Of a stretch of DNA of 55,514 bases, positions 4,595 through 55,514 are shown one piece after another. The translations under genes were made by a program, and so were the position numbers. Numbering within the stretch: position 1 is the first letter of the stretch; the number at the start of each line of letters is the position of its first letter. The stretch lies in the NCBI GenBank assembly GCA_001938485.1, contig MQRK01223772.1:1-55514 (forward strand), given 5' to 3'. The DNA comes from Girardia tigrina (lineage: Eukaryota). The notes below the pieces were generated by a model. The model saw only the letters and a list, made by a program, of their open reading frames with translations, was not told the origin of the DNA and searched no databases.

Positions 4595-5913
4595 AGGTGT
4601 GTCCACTAAAAAAGTGCACAAGTTTTAAAACCATCATAACTTTTTAATTAGACCTTCAAATTAACGGAAATCTGAACAAAGACTAGATCATAATAACACA
4701 ATAACTATTTTATTATATCAAACTATTAAGGCCATAAGAGTTAGCAAGTATTATTCTTTGTCTAAAATTTGCAAATAATGTCCTAAAATATAAATTGTTA
4801 AACTGCTTTGNNNNNNNNNNNNNNNNNNNNNNNNNNNNNNNNNNNNNNNNNNNNNNNNNNNNNNNNNNNNNNNNNNNNNNNNNNNNNNNNNNNNNNNNNN
4901 NNNNNNNNNNNNNNNNNNNNNNNNNNNNNNNNNNNNNNNNNNNNTTTTTGACAAATGGAATTTTGTTGTCCTCTAAGCACTTCAGACTTGCTTTGGCGTA
5001 GTGACAAGAAGCAAGATCTGGCCAGAAGATGAAGTGACCAGCTGGGTATTTCTCATTCAGATACGGAAGCAAACGCTTCGTTAAGCACTCGGAGATATAA
5101 ATATCCGAATTAGAAGCTACAGATTTCCATTTCCTGATGCACAGGTTTGAAATGCCTCGTCTGGAAACAGTTGCCCAAACCAAAACTTTTACTGTGAATT
5201 TGTCTCGAAATTTAGGGCGAATATTATCAGGTACATCACCGAACTTCTTTTGGTCCACATAATAACCCGATGTCATTGCTCCGGTGAGTGTAAAATACGA
5301 CTCATCATCAAGTACAAAGTCGGTTTTGGTCCTTTCCACAACAATTTTAGCGAGATTTTGCCACCTGGTTTTCTGGCGAATAATCTGTGTCGGAGTAACC
5401 TTTGGGGCTTCTTTCCTCTTTCAAAACACTATGTTATTAGTCTTGAGAATCTTATGAACGTAAGACTTTGAAACATTCATTTCTCTACCTAACTTTCTCA
5501 CACTTTGTCCAACAGTCAAAGTTGCACGTTGCAGAAGTCTCTTCCTTTTGTCTGACGTCATTTTAACAGGCTTCCTTCCACTTCCTACTTTTCTTTCAAT
5601 GCTGCCGGTCTTCTCATAGCGTTGTATTATTGCATATATACCTCTTCTGGAAAAATGAATGTCAGTAAACTTTGTCTCAGTCTCACTTTTACTGTGCGTT
5701 TTGAAAAAATTGATTATATCTTCATGTCGTTTTGAAATCATTATAATTGTCTCTAAAATAAAACATATTAAATCAAAAATTTTAAATACCTGCTTTACTA
5801 TTTCTAACCTATTAAAACAAATATTTAAATTCCAAATTTACGAAATTAAATAATATTACATTAAAAAGTTATGATGGTTTTAAAACTTGTGCACTTTTTC
5901 AGTGGACACACCT
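4595..5913 (-). mobile_element. Tc1/mariner-superfamily transposon, ITmD37E/DD37E-like, full length but disrupted
   Basis: ~50-bp TIRs (AGGTGTGTCCACT.AAAAAGTGCACAAGTTTTAAAACCATCATAACTTTTTAAT) flanked by TA. Transposase pieces at 5421-5741 (HTH, GSGRKP) and 4713-5339 (VLDDESYF, FWPDLASCHY). The third catalytic residue falls in an N-gap. Confidence 0.9.
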
Positions 5914-15899: not shown

Positions 15900-16680
15900 A
15901 ACTAAGAATACGATGTTGAAAATGTTTAAACAGAATAAATAGTTTTACATATTAATTATAAAATAAAAAGCAAGTAGATTCTGAATGTAAATAATTAAAG
16001 ATAAGAGAAAAATCGAAGATAAAAAGACGAATTAAAACCCGATAGATTATCTAATGAAAATTCTAATATTGGATATACGCTAATCGTTCCTTATTCAGAG
16101 GGTTACAAAAAATTTAAATCGTCTATTTTAAAATCAATCGATATTAAATATTTGAATTTAAAAATCATTTCTAAACCTTACAAAATTCAATGTATGTTCA
16201 GCAATAAATCTCGTACTCCTTTGAGTTTATGTTCCATTCTGGTTTATCAATTTTCATGTAATTGGTGCAACGCTACATACATTGGAGAGACGTCTCGTCA
16301 TCTCTGTAAACGGATTCAGGAGCATGGACGATTGGGTAATGGGAGTAATATTGCTGGACATATGAAAAATTGTAGATCATAGGTGAAAACCACAAATTTT
16401 AAAATATTGTGCAGTAATTTTAAAAATTATTTAGAAAGAGTTACTTGTGAAGCATTATTGATTAAATCACTTAATCCGTCCATTAATGTCCAAACAAGTC
16501 TCTTCTACTTAGTTGAAAATATTTAATTAGTTATTACGCAAGATGTTTGCATAATCATCAATTTGCTATATATAAGACAGCGAAATTATTGTTAATTCAG
16601 CCTGAAGATGGTGGAAAATTAACTGAAATATATTGCGACAATAAAATTTGATTTTAATGACGTTCTTGATTTCAATAAAA
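15900..16680 (+). mobile_element. Penelope-like element 3' end (GIY-YIG endonuclease plus pLTR)
   Basis: VYQFSCNWCNATYIGETSRHLCKRIQEH (PLE GIY-YIG), then RVTCEALLIKSLNPSIN, followed by a hammerhead motif. Confidence 0.85.
16589..16641 (+). ncRNA. PLE-type hammerhead ribozyme, family A (stem II mutated)
   Basis: CTGAAGA-T-GGTGG AAAAT TAACT-GAAA-TATA-TT-GCGACAA. Same family as the intact copy at 33088. Confidence 0.6.
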
Positions 16681-23499: not shown

Positions 23500-23697
23500 T
23501 CAAAAGTTTTAACTAACTCCTCATATCCCCTAACCCTAACCATAAACCAAACCTTAACCTTAACCCTAACTTTAACCCAGTTTTTCACGGAGCAGTTTTT
23601 TAGGAAGCAATAATTATAGAAGCAATAATGAGAGGAGTAATTTTTATAGAGAGGAAGTTTTGAGGAGCACTTTTTTTAGAGAAATTACCTGGATACC
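23500..23697. mobile_element. MULE-like MITE end with degenerate TAACCC repeats
   Basis: (TAACCY)n-like tract at 23528-23578, short GAG(C/T)AA-type subterminal repeats, terminal AATTACCTGGATACC. Confidence 0.45.
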
Positions 23698-30391: not shown

Positions 30392-31686
30392 TCTTGTGAA
30401 GGTGAGTCATACATTCTAACTTTAAATCTCTATAACCCAACATAAATTCACAAATTACAAAAAACTAATCAATTAGACTGTTGTTTGAATAAATTAAAAT
30501 AAAATTCATTTTAGTATTCATTTATAAATTTCATTTTTCATGAATATGTTGTCAGAAACAGGAAGTCGCGAATTAATTATTCGTTTATTTCAAGAAAATC
30601 CACAATCAAGTCAGAAAACAATTGCCAGAAAGGCAAAGGTTTGCCAGAAAACAGTTTCTAACGTTATTAAAAACGTCAATAACAACTTGAACGTTTGTAG
30701 AAAAATTGGATTGAGAAGAAGAAAGGATTTTTCATGTACACAGAATGTGAAGAAAGTAAAGGCTATGTTAGAGTGAAATCCTCGTCTATCAAATCGAAAA
30801 CTGGCGGTAAAGGCAAATTGTAGCGAGAAAACAGTTAGGAAAATTAAACAGTCTGTGGGTTTAAAAACGTATAAAGTTCAAGCAGTACCACAGCGAAACG
30901 CTAACGAGAACGTAATGGCGCAGCAGCGAACCAGAAAATTAAAATCTGGTTTTCTTGTGAAGAAAAAAGGTTGCATTATGGATGATGAGACTTATATGCT
31001 ATGTGAGCTTTCCCAGCTACCCGGACAAGAATTTTACTCTGCAACTAAGAGAGGATGAGTTGAAGAAAAATTTAGAAGCAAGAAAAAATATAAGTTTCCC
31101 TAAACATTTCTTGTTTGGCAGGCTATATGTGGATACGGGAAAAGGAGTAAATGCTTTGTCACATCTGGCACAATTAACACAGACGTCTATATGAATGATT
31201 GCTTGCAAAAGCGTTTTTATCATTCCTAAGTCAGCATGGAGGTCTTACTTTCTTTTGGAAGAATATTGCATCGTGTCCCTATGGTAAGGCAGCCAAGAAG
31301 TGGTACGAAGACAATAATATCGATTTGGTGGAAAGAGAGTCAAATCCATCAAATTGTCCAGAGCTTCGCCCTGTCGAAAGATATTGGGCCCTGGTAAAAA
31401 GGCAATTAAAGACGACAAACAAGAGGGTACAGACATTTGCAGATTTTCGGAACAAGTGGAATAATGGAGCAAAAAACGTGACAGAAACTACAATTGCAAG
31501 TCTAATGGCAGGCATTCCGGAAAAACTCGCAGAATGTATTAAAAAATATACATATTCTTTCTTAGCTCAATAAAATTATATTGAATGAAACACATTTTTA
31601 AAAACAGTCGGTTTTCTTTCAATCAAAAAAATGATTTTGACGATCGACGATTTTCAAGTTAGTAATATTTTTCGCACACAGTCCTT
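30392..31686 (+). mobile_element. ITmD37E/DD37E transposon, frameshifted, left TIR missing
   Basis: HTH at 30540, IMDDETY, and FWKNIASCPY...NCPELRPVERYW with 37 residues between the second D position and the E. Right end TCGCACACAGTCCTT. Confidence 0.85.
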
Positions 31687-39042: not shown

Positions 39043-40478
39043 CAGTGCTTTCAAAAGGTAACTGTGCACCTGCAATTTCAAAACAAGAACGATATCTTGT
39101 GTTCTAAAAATCTATAACAAAATATTTTGAGTAGTCAATTTTATGTGAAGAACAATGACCGTCTCTTAATTTATTAAAAATAACAAGAAAAGAGTCACAA
39201 CAACTGCTAGAAATGCCCACCAAGTTCGTGAATACAAACGTTAATTCGACGTTTCAAGTTTTCGAACACTCGGTGAATTTCCTCTTGGGTGATGGCTTCA
39301 ATTTGGTGTAGGATGTTATCACGTAGGTCTTGCAAAGTTTGTGGTTTGTTTCGGTAAACCTTTTGCTTTATCGCTCCCCACAAGTCCAAAACACTTAGAT
39401 CTGGGGATCTTGGCAGCCAAATTCCTTTGGAAATGATTCTCTTCGGGAAGATCTCATTCAAAAAACGAAGCGAAATGTTTGCGGTATGTGCTGTTGCACC
39501 ATCCTGCTGAAAATAGCCAGTCGATCGTTCTTCTTCAGTTAACTGGCCGATGAAAGCAGAAAGGATTTCCTTGCAGTACCTTTCTGATGTTATGGTTTCA
39601 GTAAAAAAGATGGNNNNNNNNNNNNNNNNNNNNNNNNNNNNNNNNNNNNNNNNNNNNNNNNNNNNNNNNNNNNNNNNNNNNNNNNNNNNNNNNNNNNNNN
39701 NNNNNNNNNNNNNNNNNNNNNNNNNNNNNNNATCCAGACAAATGAAACCACGCTTCATCGGAAAAAAAGTCTTGTCGAGCATGTCATCCTCATTCAGATT
39801 TTCCTTGAACCAATGACAAAACTGGAGTCGCTTTTCAAAGTCTGTGTTTTCAACTCATGTTGACAAATAACACGATATGGATATAACCTTAAAGTTTTCC
39901 TCACGGCGACATGTGCAGTTCCAACGGATACACTTACTTCTTGAGATAATTTTTCGCATTGAGTTTGTTGGACTCTGGCTCATGGCTTTCGAAATAACAT
40001 TGACTTTTTGCTCCGTTAAAATCGTTGGTCGACCTGAGCGGGAGGCATCATGAACGGATCCAGTTTCTCTGAACATGTTCACTAACACTCAAACTGCATT
40101 TCGATGAGGTATTGCTGTTGCGGGAAACTTTTCAGCAAATTTTTCCTTAACTGCTTCTGTGTATTCATCATTCGCACGAAAGACATGTTCAATCAAAAAT
40201 AGTCTCTCCTCCGTTGACAAAACCATTTTAAATTGGAATTAACTTCGCAATAAATTGACTTTCGTCAATGATTAGATTGAATATCAAAATGATATTTTTT
40301 TTAAAAAATTTAAAACGCTCAGTGTCAAGGTCAAAGTGTGCAGGTATGTGTTTTGTTCACGAATCTATTTCATAGTTCGATTTTATAGAAATTTGCATTT
40401 AAAAAGTCTGCTACAACGCTGATTATCTAAAAATAAGCCAGACAATGAAAGGTGCACAGTGACTTTCTGAACGCACTG
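39043..40478 (-). mobile_element. rosa-like mariner (D-38-D spacing), full length but disrupted
   Basis: TIRs CAGTGC.TTCA.AA.GT.ACTGTGCACCT with TA TSD. FRETGSV...SGRP, FQQDGATAHT...WLPRSPDLSVLD. Confidence 0.9.
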
Positions 40479-47929: not shown

Positions 47930-49207
47930 TTAGGTTGGGGAAAAAGTAATCCATTATTTTAATGCATTATTTATCGATCAAACAATTTCAAATTTATGCT
48001 CTTTGTCAAGGTAACATTTCATAGTTATTTCACAAAAAATTTTTGCTCTTTTTTATACAGTTCTGAGTTACAGGGTGTTAAAAATTGAAGTCAACAAAGA
48101 AAAAATTTGGTACATTTTACAGTTTTTATTCGATAAAGGCGAAAATGCAAGCCAGGCGGCTGTTATTGTGAATGGTGTTTACGGTGCCAATACTGTAACG
48201 GCTAATTACACGCAATTTTGGTTTCGTCGATTCCGTGTATGCATTTTTGATGTTAAAGATGCACATATGCAGGCCTATCGTTGAAAATGTTGATAAAATC
48301 TCGGCAATGATCGAAGTTGACTGGCATGTTTGTAGTCGCAGCATCGCACAGGAGCTGAAGATCGACCACAAAACGGTTTTAAACCATTTGGGTAAAGCAG
48401 GATTCAAAAAGAAACTTGATGTTTTGGTTCCACACCAATTAAAACCAAAAAAACATGATGGATCGAATTTCCATCTGCGAAGCCTTTGCTAAACGAAATG
48501 AAATCGACCCATTTCTTAAACGGATGGTTACTGGGGATGAGAAATGGGTTACATACGACAATATTGTACGAAAACGATCGTGGTCAAAGCACGGTGAAGC
48601 ACCTCAAACGGTCGCTAAACCAGGACTAATGGCGAGGAAGGTCCTACTGTGTATTTGGTGGGACTGAAAGGAATCATTTATTATGAGTTGCTTCCGTATG
48701 GCCAAACACTAAATTCAGATCTGTACTGTCAACAACTGGACCATTTGAAGATAGCAATTGATGAGAAACATCCAGAATTGGCCAACAGAAGAGGTGTTGT
48801 GTTCCATCACGACAACGCCAGACCACATACGTCTGTAGTGACTCGCCAGAAACTCAGGGAGCTTGGTTGGGAAGTTTTAATGCATCCACCATATAGTTCG
48901 AACCTGGCACCAAGCGATTTCCAACTTTTTCTAGCATTGCAAAATTTCCTGAGTGATAAGAAATTGGGATCAATAGAAGATTGTGAAAATCGATTACTAC
49001 AGTTTTTTGCCAAAGGACCAAGACTTCTACGAGAGAGGCATTATAAAGCTACCTTCAAAATGGTAACTAATTATACAACAAAACGATGTATATTTGACTC
49101 CAGTAGAAGTCTTGGACCTTTAGCAAAAAACTGTAGTAATCCAAAACATATTAAATAAAGTTTTGAATTTCACGCCAAAATAATGGATTTCTTTTTCTCC
49201 AACCTAA
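47930..49207 (+). mobile_element. mariner (DD34D, mellifera-subfamily-like), near full length
   Basis: TIRs TTAGGTTGG.GAAAAAG.AATCCATTATTTT with TA TSD, 1278 bp. EVNKEKIWYILQF, VPHQL, VTGDEKW, HHDNARPH, HPPYSSNLAPSDF. A few frameshifts and stops. Confidence 0.95.
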
Positions 49208-53159: not shown

Positions 53160-53640
53160 CCATGCTCAGTTTGGCCCTATATCTCAGCGACTTCAGTCTG
53201 TCTACGGAAACTCTCTTGGTTTGATTATTAATTTTGATCTTCATGTTCTTGAGAATGTATACTTCAGCTAATTATTGAGTACGATCCGTCGTATAACGGT
53301 TCAAGGCATATCGTGTATTCATTTCTGAGCCAAACGTTTGTTAACGTCTCAAGTCTCCGATCGATGAATGGTTTGATGGAGGCTTTCCTTGTAGCTCCGC
53401 AGTTTAAGAAATATTTGATGTTTCTTTTTATACCTTCTGGTTCTTCAAGTTGTTTTTCCGTTGCAATTGGATGGTCATTAAGTAGTCTCATATTGTATCC
53501 AAAGGTGAGCTGAGAAGGTGATACTCTTCTGTCAGATTTGATAGTGTTTCTTAATCCGAGGAGGACTATAGGAAGATTTTTATACCAATCTTTGTTTGTT
53601 TCCTATGAGGCTGCATTTAATGAATCGTGAGCCTGTTCAC
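53160..53640 (-). mobile_element. Ty3/Gypsy integrase C-terminal remnant
   Basis: DWYKNLPIVLLGLRNTIKSD..SPSQLTFGYNMRL...VWLRN...LEPLYDGSY. Confidence 0.75.
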
Positions 53641-53967
53641 TAGTCTTACAGTCATGAAATCGATTCCAGCAACGTCTGTTGAATCAAAAGCCTCAAAAAA
53701 CTTCTTATAGTTATTTTTGTGTGATCGTGATCACAGAATAAATAGATTTTTACTTTTGATAATCTCTTGCACAGATGGAATACAATTGTTGCTAACCAAG
53801 GTGTTTACATTGAGAAATGATAAATAATATTTTTCTTACTAGTAATAAATTTTGTTCAAAATAAAAGTTGTTAGAACATTGCTATTTTTTTATTTCATTC
53901 GGAATCTTAGAGGCAATTGATAGAACGACGTAGAACCATCTATATTCTTTTATCAAATATAAACTCT

Positions 53968-54300
53968 TCACTTCGATATGCTGCTGATATAAAATGTTAA
54001 GATTAATAAAATTAATTTCCTCGGGCATGAATATACCCGCTCATAGTATGGTGCGAGAGCGGGCGCTGTGATTACATGGCCGCGACGCTCCTCGGCTGTG
54101 GGGGGGTGAACTTCAGGGCGCGGGGAGGTACAAATTGATACCTTTAATTTGCCGCCGCCGCTGTTTCGCTCTCGGTCGGTCTTGGGATTCATCGCGGTAT
54201 CGATCCGAAGACGGTCGATTTTCATGCTTCTTAAGGTAACTTTTTGAGTTAAAGTTTCTGTCGATTCTTCGGGAATTACGTGCATTTTTTTCAGTTTCAT
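53968..54300 (-). CDS. Hypothetical 110-aa ORF in the tandem unit (copy 1)
   Basis: ATG-initiated, with AATAAA ~75 nt downstream. No recognisable domain. It may be incidental to the GC-rich structured segment. Confidence 0.25.
   Translation of the reverse strand: MKLKKMHVIPEESTETLTQKVTLRSMKIDRLRIDTAMNPKTDRERNSGGGKLKVSICTSPRPEVHPPTAEERRGHVITAPALAPYYERVYSCPRKLILLILTFYISSISK
54018..54245 (+). ncRNA. Candidate structured RNA in the tandem unit
   Basis: TATAAAA at 53988, 5'/3' closing stem GGGCATGAA/TTCATGCTT, three internal hairpins, T5 at 54241 and T7 at 54285. Confidence 0.4.
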
Positions 54301-54528
54301 TTGTGATTTAAAGCGTCAGATTCGGTAATAGATTCACTAGTGACGTAAGACACTTTGAGTTTTGATGCGTCGACAGCAAGAAATTTTATGAGAGATTCAC
54401 GGACGATTTCGGCATTTTCCGTTCGTCTTGTTGTTCTAACTTTTCAGTTTGATTTTTTTCTCAATCAGTAGGGGAAAAATGTATGTTCTCCACCACCCCC
54501 CCGGGGGGGGTCGTAACTAGTTACCGTG

Positions 54529-54690
54529 GTTGCCATGGCAACGGTCGCGGTTACCATGGCAACGGTCGCGGTTACCATGGCAACGGTCGCGATCACCTTG
54601 GCAACGCTTCCGATTGGCCGCCGGGCCCCCTAGCAACGGTCGCGATCACCTTGGCAACGCTTCTGATTGGTTCCTTGGTTCCCTAGCAAC
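54529..54690. promoter_or_regulatory. Cluster of RFX X-box motifs and CCAAT boxes
   Basis: GTTGCCATGGCAAC (54529), GTTACCATGGCAAC (54550, 54571), ATCACCTTGGCAAC twice, CCCTAGCAAC twice. ATTGG at 54613 and 54666. Confidence 0.65.
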
Positions 54691-54896
54691 GGTCGCGAAA
54701 CCGTTCGGAATTTCATTCGGAATCTTAGAGTGTTTACATTGAGAAATGATAAATAATATTTTTCTTACTAGTAATAAATTTTGTTCAAAATAAAAGTTGT
54801 TAGAACATTGCTATTTTTTTATTTCATTCGGAATCTTAGAGGCAATTGATAGAACGACGTAGAACCATCTATATTCTTTTATCAAATATAAACTCT

Positions 54897-55229
54897 TCAC
54901 TTCGATATGCTGCTGATATAAAATGTTAAGATTAATAAAATTAATTTCCTCGGGCATGAATATACCCGCTCATAGTATGGTGCGAGAGCGGGCGCTGTGA
55001 TTACATGGCCGCGACGCTCCTCGGCTGTGGGGGGGTGAACTTCAGGGCGCGGGGAGGTACAAATTGATACCTTTAATTTGCCGCCGCCGCTGTTTCGCTC
55101 TCGGTCGGTCTTGGGATTCATCGCGGTATCGATCCGAAGACGGTCGATTTTCATGCTTCTTAAGGTAACTTTTTGAGTTAAAGTTTCTGTCGATTCTTCG
55201 GGAATTACGTGCATTTTTTTCAGTTTCAT
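54897..55229 (-). CDS. Hypothetical 110-aa ORF in the tandem unit (copy 2)
   Basis: Identical to the copy at 53968-54300. Confidence 0.25.
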   Translation of the reverse strand: MKLKKMHVIPEESTETLTQKVTLRSMKIDRLRIDTAMNPKTDRERNSGGGKLKVSICTSPRPEVHPPTAEERRGHVITAPALAPYYERVYSCPRKLILLILTFYISSISK

Positions 55230-55514
55230 TTGTGATTTAAAGCGTCAGATTCGGTAATAGATTCACTAGTGACGTAAGACACTTTGAGTTTTGATGCGTC
55301 GACAGCAAGAAATTTTATGAGAGATTCACGGACGATTTCGGCATTTTCCGTTCGTCTTGTTGTTCTAACTTTTCAGTTTGATTTTTTTCTCAATCAGTAG
55401 GGGAAAAATGTATGTTCTCCACCACCCCCCCGGGGGGGGTCGTAACTAGTTACCGTGGTTGCCATGGCAACGGTCGCGGTTACCATGGCAACGGTCGCGG
55501 TTACCATGGCAACG

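What the first reader, a model, noticed from the sequence alone, without database searches (positions are those of the whole stretch)
54512..54697. Seven phased RFX X-box-like sites with CCAAT boxes in each unit
Seen: a 21-bp repeat (GGTTACCATGGCAACGGTCGC) puts 14-bp sites at 54529, 54550, 54571 and 54592, two helical turns apart. It is followed by a 53-bp repeat twice, each with X-box + GATTGG + CCCTAGCAAC, and preceded by the palindrome GTAACTAGTTAC. Established: GTTNCCATGGNAAC is the RFX consensus, and RFX with NF-Y co-occurs at ciliary, sperm and MHC-II-type promoters and in some viral enhancers. The unit also starts with the forkhead-like TGTTTACA. Inference: a strong ciliated-cell or germline enhancer driving the array, a multicopy RFX sink, or iteron-like initiator sites next to an AT-rich unwinding region.
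Basis: partly seen in the sequence, partly recalled or inferred. Interest (0 to 1): 0.7.

Follow-up and report, generated by a model that had tools for sequence, protein, structure and literature searches.

The report
RFX-site ends of a split Polinton
The cluster of RFX-type binding sites is the tip of a very abundant virus-like transposon (a Polinton) whose genes lie here on two kinds of element with the same ends, one for copying DNA and one for integration and capsid, which likely depend on each other and would use the host's RFX protein as an on-switch.

Summary
The motifs are real: seven sites fit the degenerate X-box, three the strict one, with two CCAAT boxes. They do not drive an array; the 929-bp 'unit' is a single local duplication (784/784 identical). 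The cluster is the outer 235 bp of a ~1.1-kb terminal inverted repeat (TIR) with 2,814 exact ends in the genome, AGT termini and 6-bp target duplications (6 of 6 two-ended copies, plus this insertion): a Polinton/Maverick end, not a Helitron. The same TIR bounds two complementary classes: R (pPolB, predicted SSB, mini-TBP) and S (ATPase, integrase, capsid-like genes, protease). No locus of 318 held both. S genes carry a fixed TATA-like box that R's pPolB and TBP genes lack. Best reading: a bipartite Polinton whose ends likely recruit host RFX, as AAV ITRs do. Against: RFX binding is untested, motif positions were not significantly better conserved (p=0.56), S target duplications are imperfect, and a sister lineage keeps TBP/SSB beside ATPase and integrase and may be one-piece. 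The scan saw this repeat before in this genome (called Helitron or unknown), and a split Polinton and Polinton TBPs in other genomes.

The parts
54467..54701 (+). Outer 235 bp of the Polinton-type terminal inverted repeat (orphan copy, cut off at 54701 by the local duplication)
   Evidence: Sharp common left edge with unrelated flanks in 61 distinct ends, 59 beginning AGTA; 2,814 exact copies of the first 24 nt; other copies run on past 54701
54467..54490 (+). Element terminus (AGTAG...), predicted integrase and protein-priming end
   Evidence: complete Mavericks of the same genome begin AGTAGT/AGTAAT; function inferred from the family
54461..54466 (+). Left copy of the 6-bp target-site duplication TCAATC (repeated at 55390-55395)
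   Evidence: Partner end followed by TCAATC and the continuation of the interrupted repeat on contig C96078
54496..54510 (.). C-run/G-run hairpin, the feature that makes the end look like a Helitron 3' end
   Evidence: Sequence; length varies among copies
54513..54524 (.). 12-bp palindrome GTAACTAGTTAC (half-sites facing outward); variable among TIR subfamilies
54529..54584 (.). Three full palindromic X-boxes at 21-bp spacing (54529, 54550, 54571)
   Evidence: Match all three consensuses tested
54592..54690 (+). Four degenerate X-boxes with an intact right half-site (54592, 54625, 54645, 54678)
   Evidence: Match RYYNYY N1-3 RRNRAC only
54612..54617 (-). CCAAT box 1
54665..54670 (-). CCAAT box 2
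54702..54730 (+). 29-bp junction filler; its last 21 nt copy 53892-53912 of the duplicated segment (templated insertion)
53802..54701 (+). First copy of the 900-bp tandem duplication spanning flank, older repeat and element end
54731..55514 (+). Second copy of the duplication, 784/784 identical, running to the contig end
55396..55514 (+). Likely true left end of the inserted element; the contig breaks inside the X-box array
   Evidence: partner end on C96078
54049..54466 (+). Older dispersed repeat interrupted by the insertion (repeated at 54978-55395)
   Evidence: 82-88% identical copies elsewhere run on past the insertion point

Best explanation
The X-box cluster is the outer part of the ~1.1-kb terminal inverted repeat of a high-copy Polinton (Maverick)-type element whose genes are divided between two element classes with the same ends, and the repeat likely binds the host's RFX factor to switch these likely interdependent halves on. 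Shown: AGT ends, 6-bp target duplication, class R (pPolB, mini-TBP, an ORF with a predicted T7 gp2.5-type SSB fold; 6-10 kb) and class S (packaging ATPase, integrase, two capsid-like genes, protease-like gene; about 9 kb), both bounded by this TIR and never seen in one locus. Inferred: host RFX (with NF-Y where CCAAT boxes are present) would bind the arrays at each end and activate the inward-facing genes or assist protein-primed initiation; R's mini-TBP would read the YATAAAYR box in front of S genes; R's pPolB and SSB would copy both classes from the shared ends; S's integrase would insert both. My odds by step: Polinton-type TIR 0.95; R and S complement each other 0.7; RFX binding is used by the element 0.5.
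For: Ends and target duplications; 6 of 6 elements with both ends on one contig (among 21 contigs examined) have a perfect 6-bp duplication; this window's insertion has TCAATC on both sides. Genes of R: PF03175 over cut-off, gap-free links TIR to pPolB, PF00352 E 9e-16, top three folds for ORF2 are DUF2815, Enc34 SSB and T7 gp2.5 at Z 8.3, 7.8, 7.1 (rmsd 2.7-3.3, 106-108 aligned). Genes of S: rve plus chromo over cut-off; ATPase 67% identical to a Pox_A32-positive protein, protease 39% identical to a Peptidase_C5-positive one; major-capsid-like ORF has DJR-like clusters as nearest look-alikes (0.97-0.98; family on 15-24% of members). S copies with this TIR on one or both sides. R genes in 106 and S genes in 52 of 318 loci, both in 0; module edges face a TIR or their own module, never the other; 112 pPolB contigs and 98 capsid contigs share none. 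Inner TIR identity R-R 86.5%, R-S 86.4%, S-S 88.7%. Box 35-46 nt before the start of S genes (5/5, 6/7, 7/8, 13/17 copies) and absent before pPolB (0/9) and TBP (0/40, 0/17); background 31 of 583 tiles. Shared alleles are enriched for synonymous changes in pPolB (p 1e-31), TBP (p 0.0008), integrase (p 0.007) and protease (p 0.03). A metagenome Polinton carries TBP, ATPase, integrase and pPolB in one piece (L230). Host has RFX DNA-binding domains. RFX1/3 bind the AAV ITR D sequence (PMC5760533, abstract and Discussion).
Against: RFX binding, chromatin state and expression were not tested. The test for extra conservation of motif positions was not significant: 3 of 27 recurrent variants versus 19 of 105 private changes at core positions, p=0.56; spacer positions 16-18 are as conserved as the half-site; 205 of 723 unit occurrences miss even the degenerate consensus. 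CCAAT boxes are absent from the first 600 nt in 11 of 26 ends. Ends were picked partly by having 2-3 half-sites, so X-box presence in them is partly built in. None of 3 S elements checked has a perfect target duplication (5/6, 4/6, no match). A sister lineage (TBP and SSB about 68% and 57% identical to R's) has them next to an ATPase and integrase and behind the same TIR (L281, L291); its pPolB was not found or excluded, so a one-piece helper may exist. The assembly is fragmented (255,254 contigs) and breaks at these TIRs; 5 of 16, 11 of 38, 10 of 28 and 3 of 12 edges showed neither TIR nor gene. Selection signal was not significant for SSB, MCP or minor capsid. The capsid ORF has no Pfam hit and its single-sequence model failed. 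Which class the window's own element belongs to is unknown; its partner end is closest to R copies (max 93.5%), and that end differs from the window's after about 120 nt. Other Mavericks of this genome have no X-box clusters in their TIRs, so RFX sites are not a general need.
Confidence: 0.6

Rival explanations
1. R and S are separate non-autonomous deletion derivatives, each helped by a complete one-piece Polinton with the same TIR (perhaps the TBP2 sister lineage) that this assembly does not resolve.
For: L281 and L291 place TBP2/SSB2 beside ATPase/integrase behind the TIR; R and S read as complementary deletions of the order seen there and in L230; sister-lineage contigs are short; polB-less Polintons occur beside complete ones in insects (10.1101/2025.02.07.637071, passages).
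Against: No locus of 318 and none of 112 x 98 contigs joins R and S genes; sister genes are about 30% diverged from R and S, while R and S genes show their own purifying selection; S genes keep a promoter box whose likely reader lies on R.
Confidence: 0.25
2. The element is as described, but the X-box likeness is incidental: a short unit multiplied by slippage and end-to-end copying inside the TIR, with no use of RFX.
For: Conservation test not significant and spacers equally conserved; unit number varies between copies and between the two ends of one insertion; other Maverick TIRs lack the motif; no tandem X-box pattern in viral contigs and no cluster near 35 metagenome TBP relatives, most of which lack their ends.
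Against: All 26 ends scored keep at least one strict X-box while terminal positions 16-30 diverge; variation falls mostly at the degenerate X-box positions and spacing stays at 21, 31-32 and 42 bp; RFX is used at viral enhancers and at the AAV ITR (PMC7077322 passages; PMC5760533).
Confidence: 0.4
3. The repeat is a Helitron/Helentron end carrying a minisatellite (reading of earlier scan notes).
For: C/G hairpin followed by CTAG near the end; earlier notes.
Against: Both ends are inverted copies, with 6-bp target duplications and Polinton genes between them; the edge lies about 50 nt outside the CTAG.
Confidence: 0.02
4. A host ciliary or germline enhancer, or an iteron origin, belonging to a 929-bp tandem array.
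For: Good motif matches and helical spacing.
Against: The 929-bp unit exists at this locus only, as 1.8 copies, and is a patchwork of flank, older repeat and TIR; no gene was found next to it.
Confidence: 0.03

Closest known systems
Polintons/Mavericks (PMC8097293 passages; PMC6431247 passages)
   Same: Long TIR, AGT-type ends, 6-bp target duplication, pPolB, retroviral-type integrase, packaging ATPase, protease-like and capsid-like genes.
   Different: No single copy seen holds both pPolB and integrase; genes are on two 6-10 kb classes; end is AGTAG rather than (AGT)2; TIR holds an X-box array; mini-TBP and predicted SSB on the polymerase class.
Bidnaviruses (Bombyx mori bidensovirus; PMC4061559 passages)
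   Same: Two segments with conserved terminal structure; pPolB of Polinton origin.
   Different: Bidnaviruses are ssDNA, parvovirus-type capsid, capsid and polymerase on the same segment, no integrase; here both classes are integrated and polymerase is separated from capsid and integrase.
AAV ITR D sequence bound by RFX1/RFX3 (PMC5760533, abstract and Discussion); RFX1/EF-C sites in HBV and polyomavirus enhancers (PMC7077322 passages)
   Same: RFX site inside a viral terminal repeat or enhancer.
   Different: One site with binding shown there; here up to 18 phased sites per end, binding not tested.
polB-lacking Polintons of insects (10.1101/2025.02.07.637071 passages)
   Same: Mobile Polintons without polymerase, like class S.
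   Different: Complete relatives exist in that host and no complementary polymerase-only class is mentioned in the passages read.
TBP-bearing Polintons in metagenomes (L230, L255, L228)
   Same: Mini-TBP 41-69% identical, related ATPase, integrase and capsid-like genes.
   Different: L230 is one piece; no X-box cluster seen, though its ends are not on the contig.

Membership tests
Polinton/Maverick | Terminal inverted repeats | tested here: met
   Inverted ends on one contig in 6 elements; shared homology reaches about 1.1 kb
Polinton/Maverick | 6-bp target-site duplication | tested here: met
   6 of 6 two-ended R-type or gene-less copies and the window's insertion; 0 of 3 S copies perfect
Polinton/Maverick | (AG)3 or (AGT)2 end motif | tested here: inconclusive
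   Ends read AGTAG (59 of 61 AGTA): one AGT plus AG, against AGTAGT in complete Mavericks of this genome
Polinton/Maverick | Protein-primed DNA polymerase B | tested here: met
   PF03175 over cut-off in class R; not found in class S copies
Polinton/Maverick | Retroviral-type integrase | tested here: met
   rve E 8e-13 plus chromo in class S; not found inside class R
Polinton/Maverick | pPolB and integrase on the same element (autonomous definition) | tested here: not met
   0 of 318 loci; 0 shared contigs; sister lineage unresolved
Polinton/Maverick | Packaging ATPase and adenovirus-like protease | tested here: met
   By homology to Pfam-positive metagenome proteins, 67% and 39% identity; no direct A32 or C5 hit on the short open frames
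Polinton/Maverick | Double jelly-roll major capsid protein | tested here: inconclusive
   Atlas look-alikes with PF21738, 22% identity to PF21738-positive MCPs, weak BLAST E 0.003, no Pfam hit, model failed
RFX X-box | Match to GTNRCC(N0-3)RGYAAC or RYYNYY N1-3 RRNRAC | tested here: met
   3 strict, 7 degenerate; above all 300 shuffles
RFX X-box | Motif positions conserved more than spacers | tested here: inconclusive
   p=0.56; profile
RFX X-box | Bound by RFX in vivo | not testable with these tools
   Host RFX domains present; no binding data
Helitron | No target duplication and no long TIR | tested here: not met
   6-bp duplications and inverted ends; criterion recalled, not from a call
Bipartite virus | Two segments with shared ends and non-overlapping essential genes | tested here: met
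   some S-type sister copies also carry TBP/SSB
Bipartite virus | Segments complement each other and are packaged | not testable with these tools
   Only indirect: promoter box distribution and selection

The most novel reading that the evidence does not exclude
A bipartite, integrating dsDNA virus-like element: a Polinton split into a polymerase/SSB/TBP segment and an integrase/capsid segment that share RFX-loaded ends, running a three-step cascade in which host RFX starts the polymerase segment and its mini-TBP turns on the other segment in trans; its thousands of ends also scatter over 13,000 perfect X-box units through the host genome.
Probability: 0.35. Interest if true: 0.85.

Novelty: new variant of a known kind. 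Interest (0 to 1): 0.68.

Why it matters
Polintons are defined by carrying polymerase and integrase together. A lineage that amplified as two complementary pieces would be an integrating dsDNA case of genome segmentation and would give a natural record of how multipartite genomes arise. The RFX array gives a testable handle on an open question, namely which host factors and cell types switch Polintons on.

Tried and rejected
Rfam scan of the window: no match. Link of this TIR to pPolB lineage A through L042 rejected: it crosses a 3.3-kb gap, and lineage A/C elements have their own TIR without X-boxes. My interim idea that the TIR belongs only to an integrase-less, capsid-less satellite was revised when class S appeared. 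The idea that an element-encoded winged-helix protein reads the repeat: such ORFs were seen only in lineages A/C, none in R or S. Public runs: no RNA holder listed; contigs of two DNA runs lie on the region but none listed spans the duplication junction, one raw-read run and one probable RNA run laid nothing, so the junction is unconfirmed by reads and an assembly artefact is not excluded. Tandem X-box pattern in viral contigs: 0. TBP alignment in viral contigs: 0. pPolB query in viral contigs: 1 contig, no strict X-box, ends not on the fetched stretch. Protein atlas gave no usable hit for ORF2; Foldseek on PDB gave no match at E<=0.001, though its top rows are the same SSBs. Capsid model pLDDT 29, not used. 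The profile search over representative proteins was never run. Literature searches without a description of X-boxes in Polinton TIRs, Polinton TBP or a bipartite Polinton in the listings; the library lacks most subscription papers and Repbase reports, and I read no supplements, where such elements could be listed.

Full report
1. Observation. The window is a whole contig of a 1.43-Gb, AT-rich, fragmented genome; earlier scan notes call it a flatworm, which I did not test. Against published consensuses (PMC2375033 and PMC7077322, passages), seven sites match the degenerate X-box and three the strict one; 300 shuffles gave at most 2 and 1. There are two CCAAT boxes, both in the 53-bp units. The 929-bp period is one duplication: 54731-55514 equals 53802-54585 at 784 of 784 letters, with a 29-bp filler whose last 21 nt are copied from inside the segment. 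The first 244 bp of the unit matched nothing else among the 40 candidates scored.

2. The cluster is an element end. The 22-mer unit has 13,437 exact matches and the 24 nt starting at 54467 have 2,814; both reversed controls gave 0. Among 61 distinct ends, flanks are unrelated and 59 begin AGTA. Of 21 contigs examined, six showed both ends, inverted, 2.4-10.2 kb apart, and all six have a perfect 6-bp target duplication. In the window the element interrupts an older repeat; a pattern for the predicted other junction found one exact match, on contig C96078, where the inverted end is followed by TCAATC and the rest of that repeat. The two ends differ in unit number after about 120 nt, which may be slippage or a chimeric short-read path. 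TIRs, AGT-type ends and 6-bp duplications are the Maverick criteria in PMC8097293 (passages). The Helitron reading of three earlier notes fails on these points.

3. What lies between the ends. The genome holds at least five pPolB lineages, 22-43% identical. Lineages A, C and D are ordinary 17-19 kb Mavericks with their own TIRs, 6-bp duplications and no half-site clusters. The X-box TIR goes with lineage B. Class R: TIR, pPolB, ORF2 and a 145-aa TBP-like gene, TIR; many copies lack one or two of these genes and most have stops or frameshifts. ORF2's C-terminal domain folds (pLDDT 81) like T7 gp2.5-type single-strand binding proteins (six viral matches at E<=0.001). TBP relatives (26 proteins, 41-99% identical) sit in Polinton-like metagenome contigs; 35 were fetched and one, L230, has TBP, ATPase, integrase and pPolB in one piece. 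Using L230 proteins as queries revealed class S in this genome: TIR, acidic ORF, ATPase, integrase, minor-capsid-like, major-capsid-like, protease-like, TIR, about 9 kb, with no pPolB, TBP or SSB; of 11 contigs fetched for it, 10 showed this TIR beside the genes on at least one side and one showed none in the stretch held.

4. Are R and S two halves? Of 318 own-genome loci (overlapping fetches, not distinct elements), 106 hold R genes, 52 hold S genes and none both. Nearest features at module edges: before pPolB, TIR 8, SSB 3, nothing 5 of 16; after pPolB, TIR 14, SSB or TBP 12, another pPolB piece 1, nothing 11 of 38; after TBP, TIR 18, nothing 10 of 28; before S's first ORF, TIR 6 of 7; after the protease, TIR 9, nothing 3 of 12. 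The hit lists (112 and 98 contigs) share none. Inner TIR identity does not separate the classes. A YATAAAYR box, a lead taken from note e1-7908265, lies 35-46 nt before four S genes and before none of pPolB, TBP1 or TBP2; copies are not independent, so this is 4 of 4 genes against 0 of 3. Alleles shared by three or more copies are richer in synonymous changes than singletons for pPolB, TBP1, integrase and protease, but not significantly for SSB, either capsid-like gene or TBP2. Against the split: a sister lineage has TBP2 and SSB2 between the acidic ORF and the ATPase, behind the same TIR; R and S read as complementary deletions of that order, and I could not determine whether the sister lineage has pPolB. 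S target duplications are imperfect in 3 of 3. After I had reached this reading, a look-up showed that the scan had noted a split Polinton in another flatworm genome (e1-8580994); that note is unchecked and is not counted as support.

5. Do the X-boxes matter? In 718 units from 93 ends, CC, T, G and AAC are 95-99% kept while positions that the X-box tolerates vary, and spacing is mostly 21 bp (399), then 31-32 and 42. But the GGT spacer is as conserved, and a test contrasting recurrent with private changes was not significant (p=0.56). All 26 ends scored keep a strict X-box, though ends were picked partly by half-site content; 11 of 26 lack a CCAAT box. The host has RFX domains at about three distinct loci. 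RFX1/3 bind the AAV ITR and affect its expression (PMC5760533, abstract and Discussion). NF-YB is a planarian germline stem-cell factor (PMC4909293, search listing only). RFX use is therefore plausible, not shown.

6. Mechanism, committed. Shown: element ends, target duplications, two gene sets, shared TIR, box distribution. Inferred: RFX on the arrays starts transcription from the ends or helps priming; R supplies polymerase, SSB and TBP; S supplies integrase and capsid functions; both move by shared ends. The window's own element is unassigned: its partner end is nearest to R copies, and window-type ends are linked to TBP1 across a gap (L041) and to S genes (L037). The finding's coordinates cover an orphan end left by a recent tandem duplication; the templated filler suggests a real repair event (recalled pattern of polymerase theta-type joining), but reads did not confirm the junction.

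7. Comparison and novelty. It works like a Polinton and meets most criteria across the two classes, but no single copy meets the polymerase-plus-integrase definition (stated in the abstract start of PMC5499653). Bidnaviruses are bipartite with a Polinton-derived polymerase but differ in strand, capsid and gene partition (PMC4061559, passages). PMC8502044 (passages and section 3.4) mentions a TBP-like gene in a figure legend on midsize dsDNA viruses and no bipartite Polinton. Searches listed nothing describing X-box arrays in Polinton TIRs or a split Polinton; Repbase, most subscription papers and all supplements were not seen. Verdict: new variant of a known kind, interest 0.68.

Noticed in passing
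window 53160-53800: Decayed ORF (53264-53602, minus) that reads like the tail of an LTR-retrotransposon integrase (motif recalled); no Pfam hit.
   Followed up: partly
window 54049-54466; L003-L009: Older dispersed repeat with a sharp 5' edge, 82-88% identical copies, class not determined.
   Followed up: partly
L129/L081 (C188483), L131/L115 (C210886), L117/L118 (C254979), L106/L105 (C251634): TIRs of complete Maverick lineages A/C are themselves ~330-bp palindromes ending in an inverted copy of the terminus; A and C share capsid, ATPase and integrase at about 85% but have pPolBs only 23% identical, suggesting a polymerase swap.
   Followed up: partly
L082:1977-2537, L088:2584-3108, L102:2078-2587: Small HTH plus C2H2 zinc-finger ORF in lineages A/C, and a phospholipase A2-like domain fused before their integrase.
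   Followed up: no
L223/L260 (C231591), L261 (C252840): Palindromic derivatives carrying two inverted mini-TBP genes between TIRs, one with a perfect 6-bp target duplication.
   Followed up: partly
L281, L285, L291; metagenome L224-L226: Second TBP/SSB lineage (about 68% identical TBP) sharing the inner TIR; also present in public metagenome contigs.
   Followed up: partly
L093, L097, L101, L107, L112, L118: X-box-TIR elements are often inserted into or beside other Mavericks; may reflect copy number only.
   Followed up: no
window 4713-5837, 30777-31573, 39207-39854, 48619-49158, 16023-16382: Several transposase-like and retroelement-like ORF remnants (identities recalled from the translations, not tested).
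   Followed up: no
window 23528-23578: Degenerate CCCTAA run of 8.5 copies, telomere-like.
   Followed up: no
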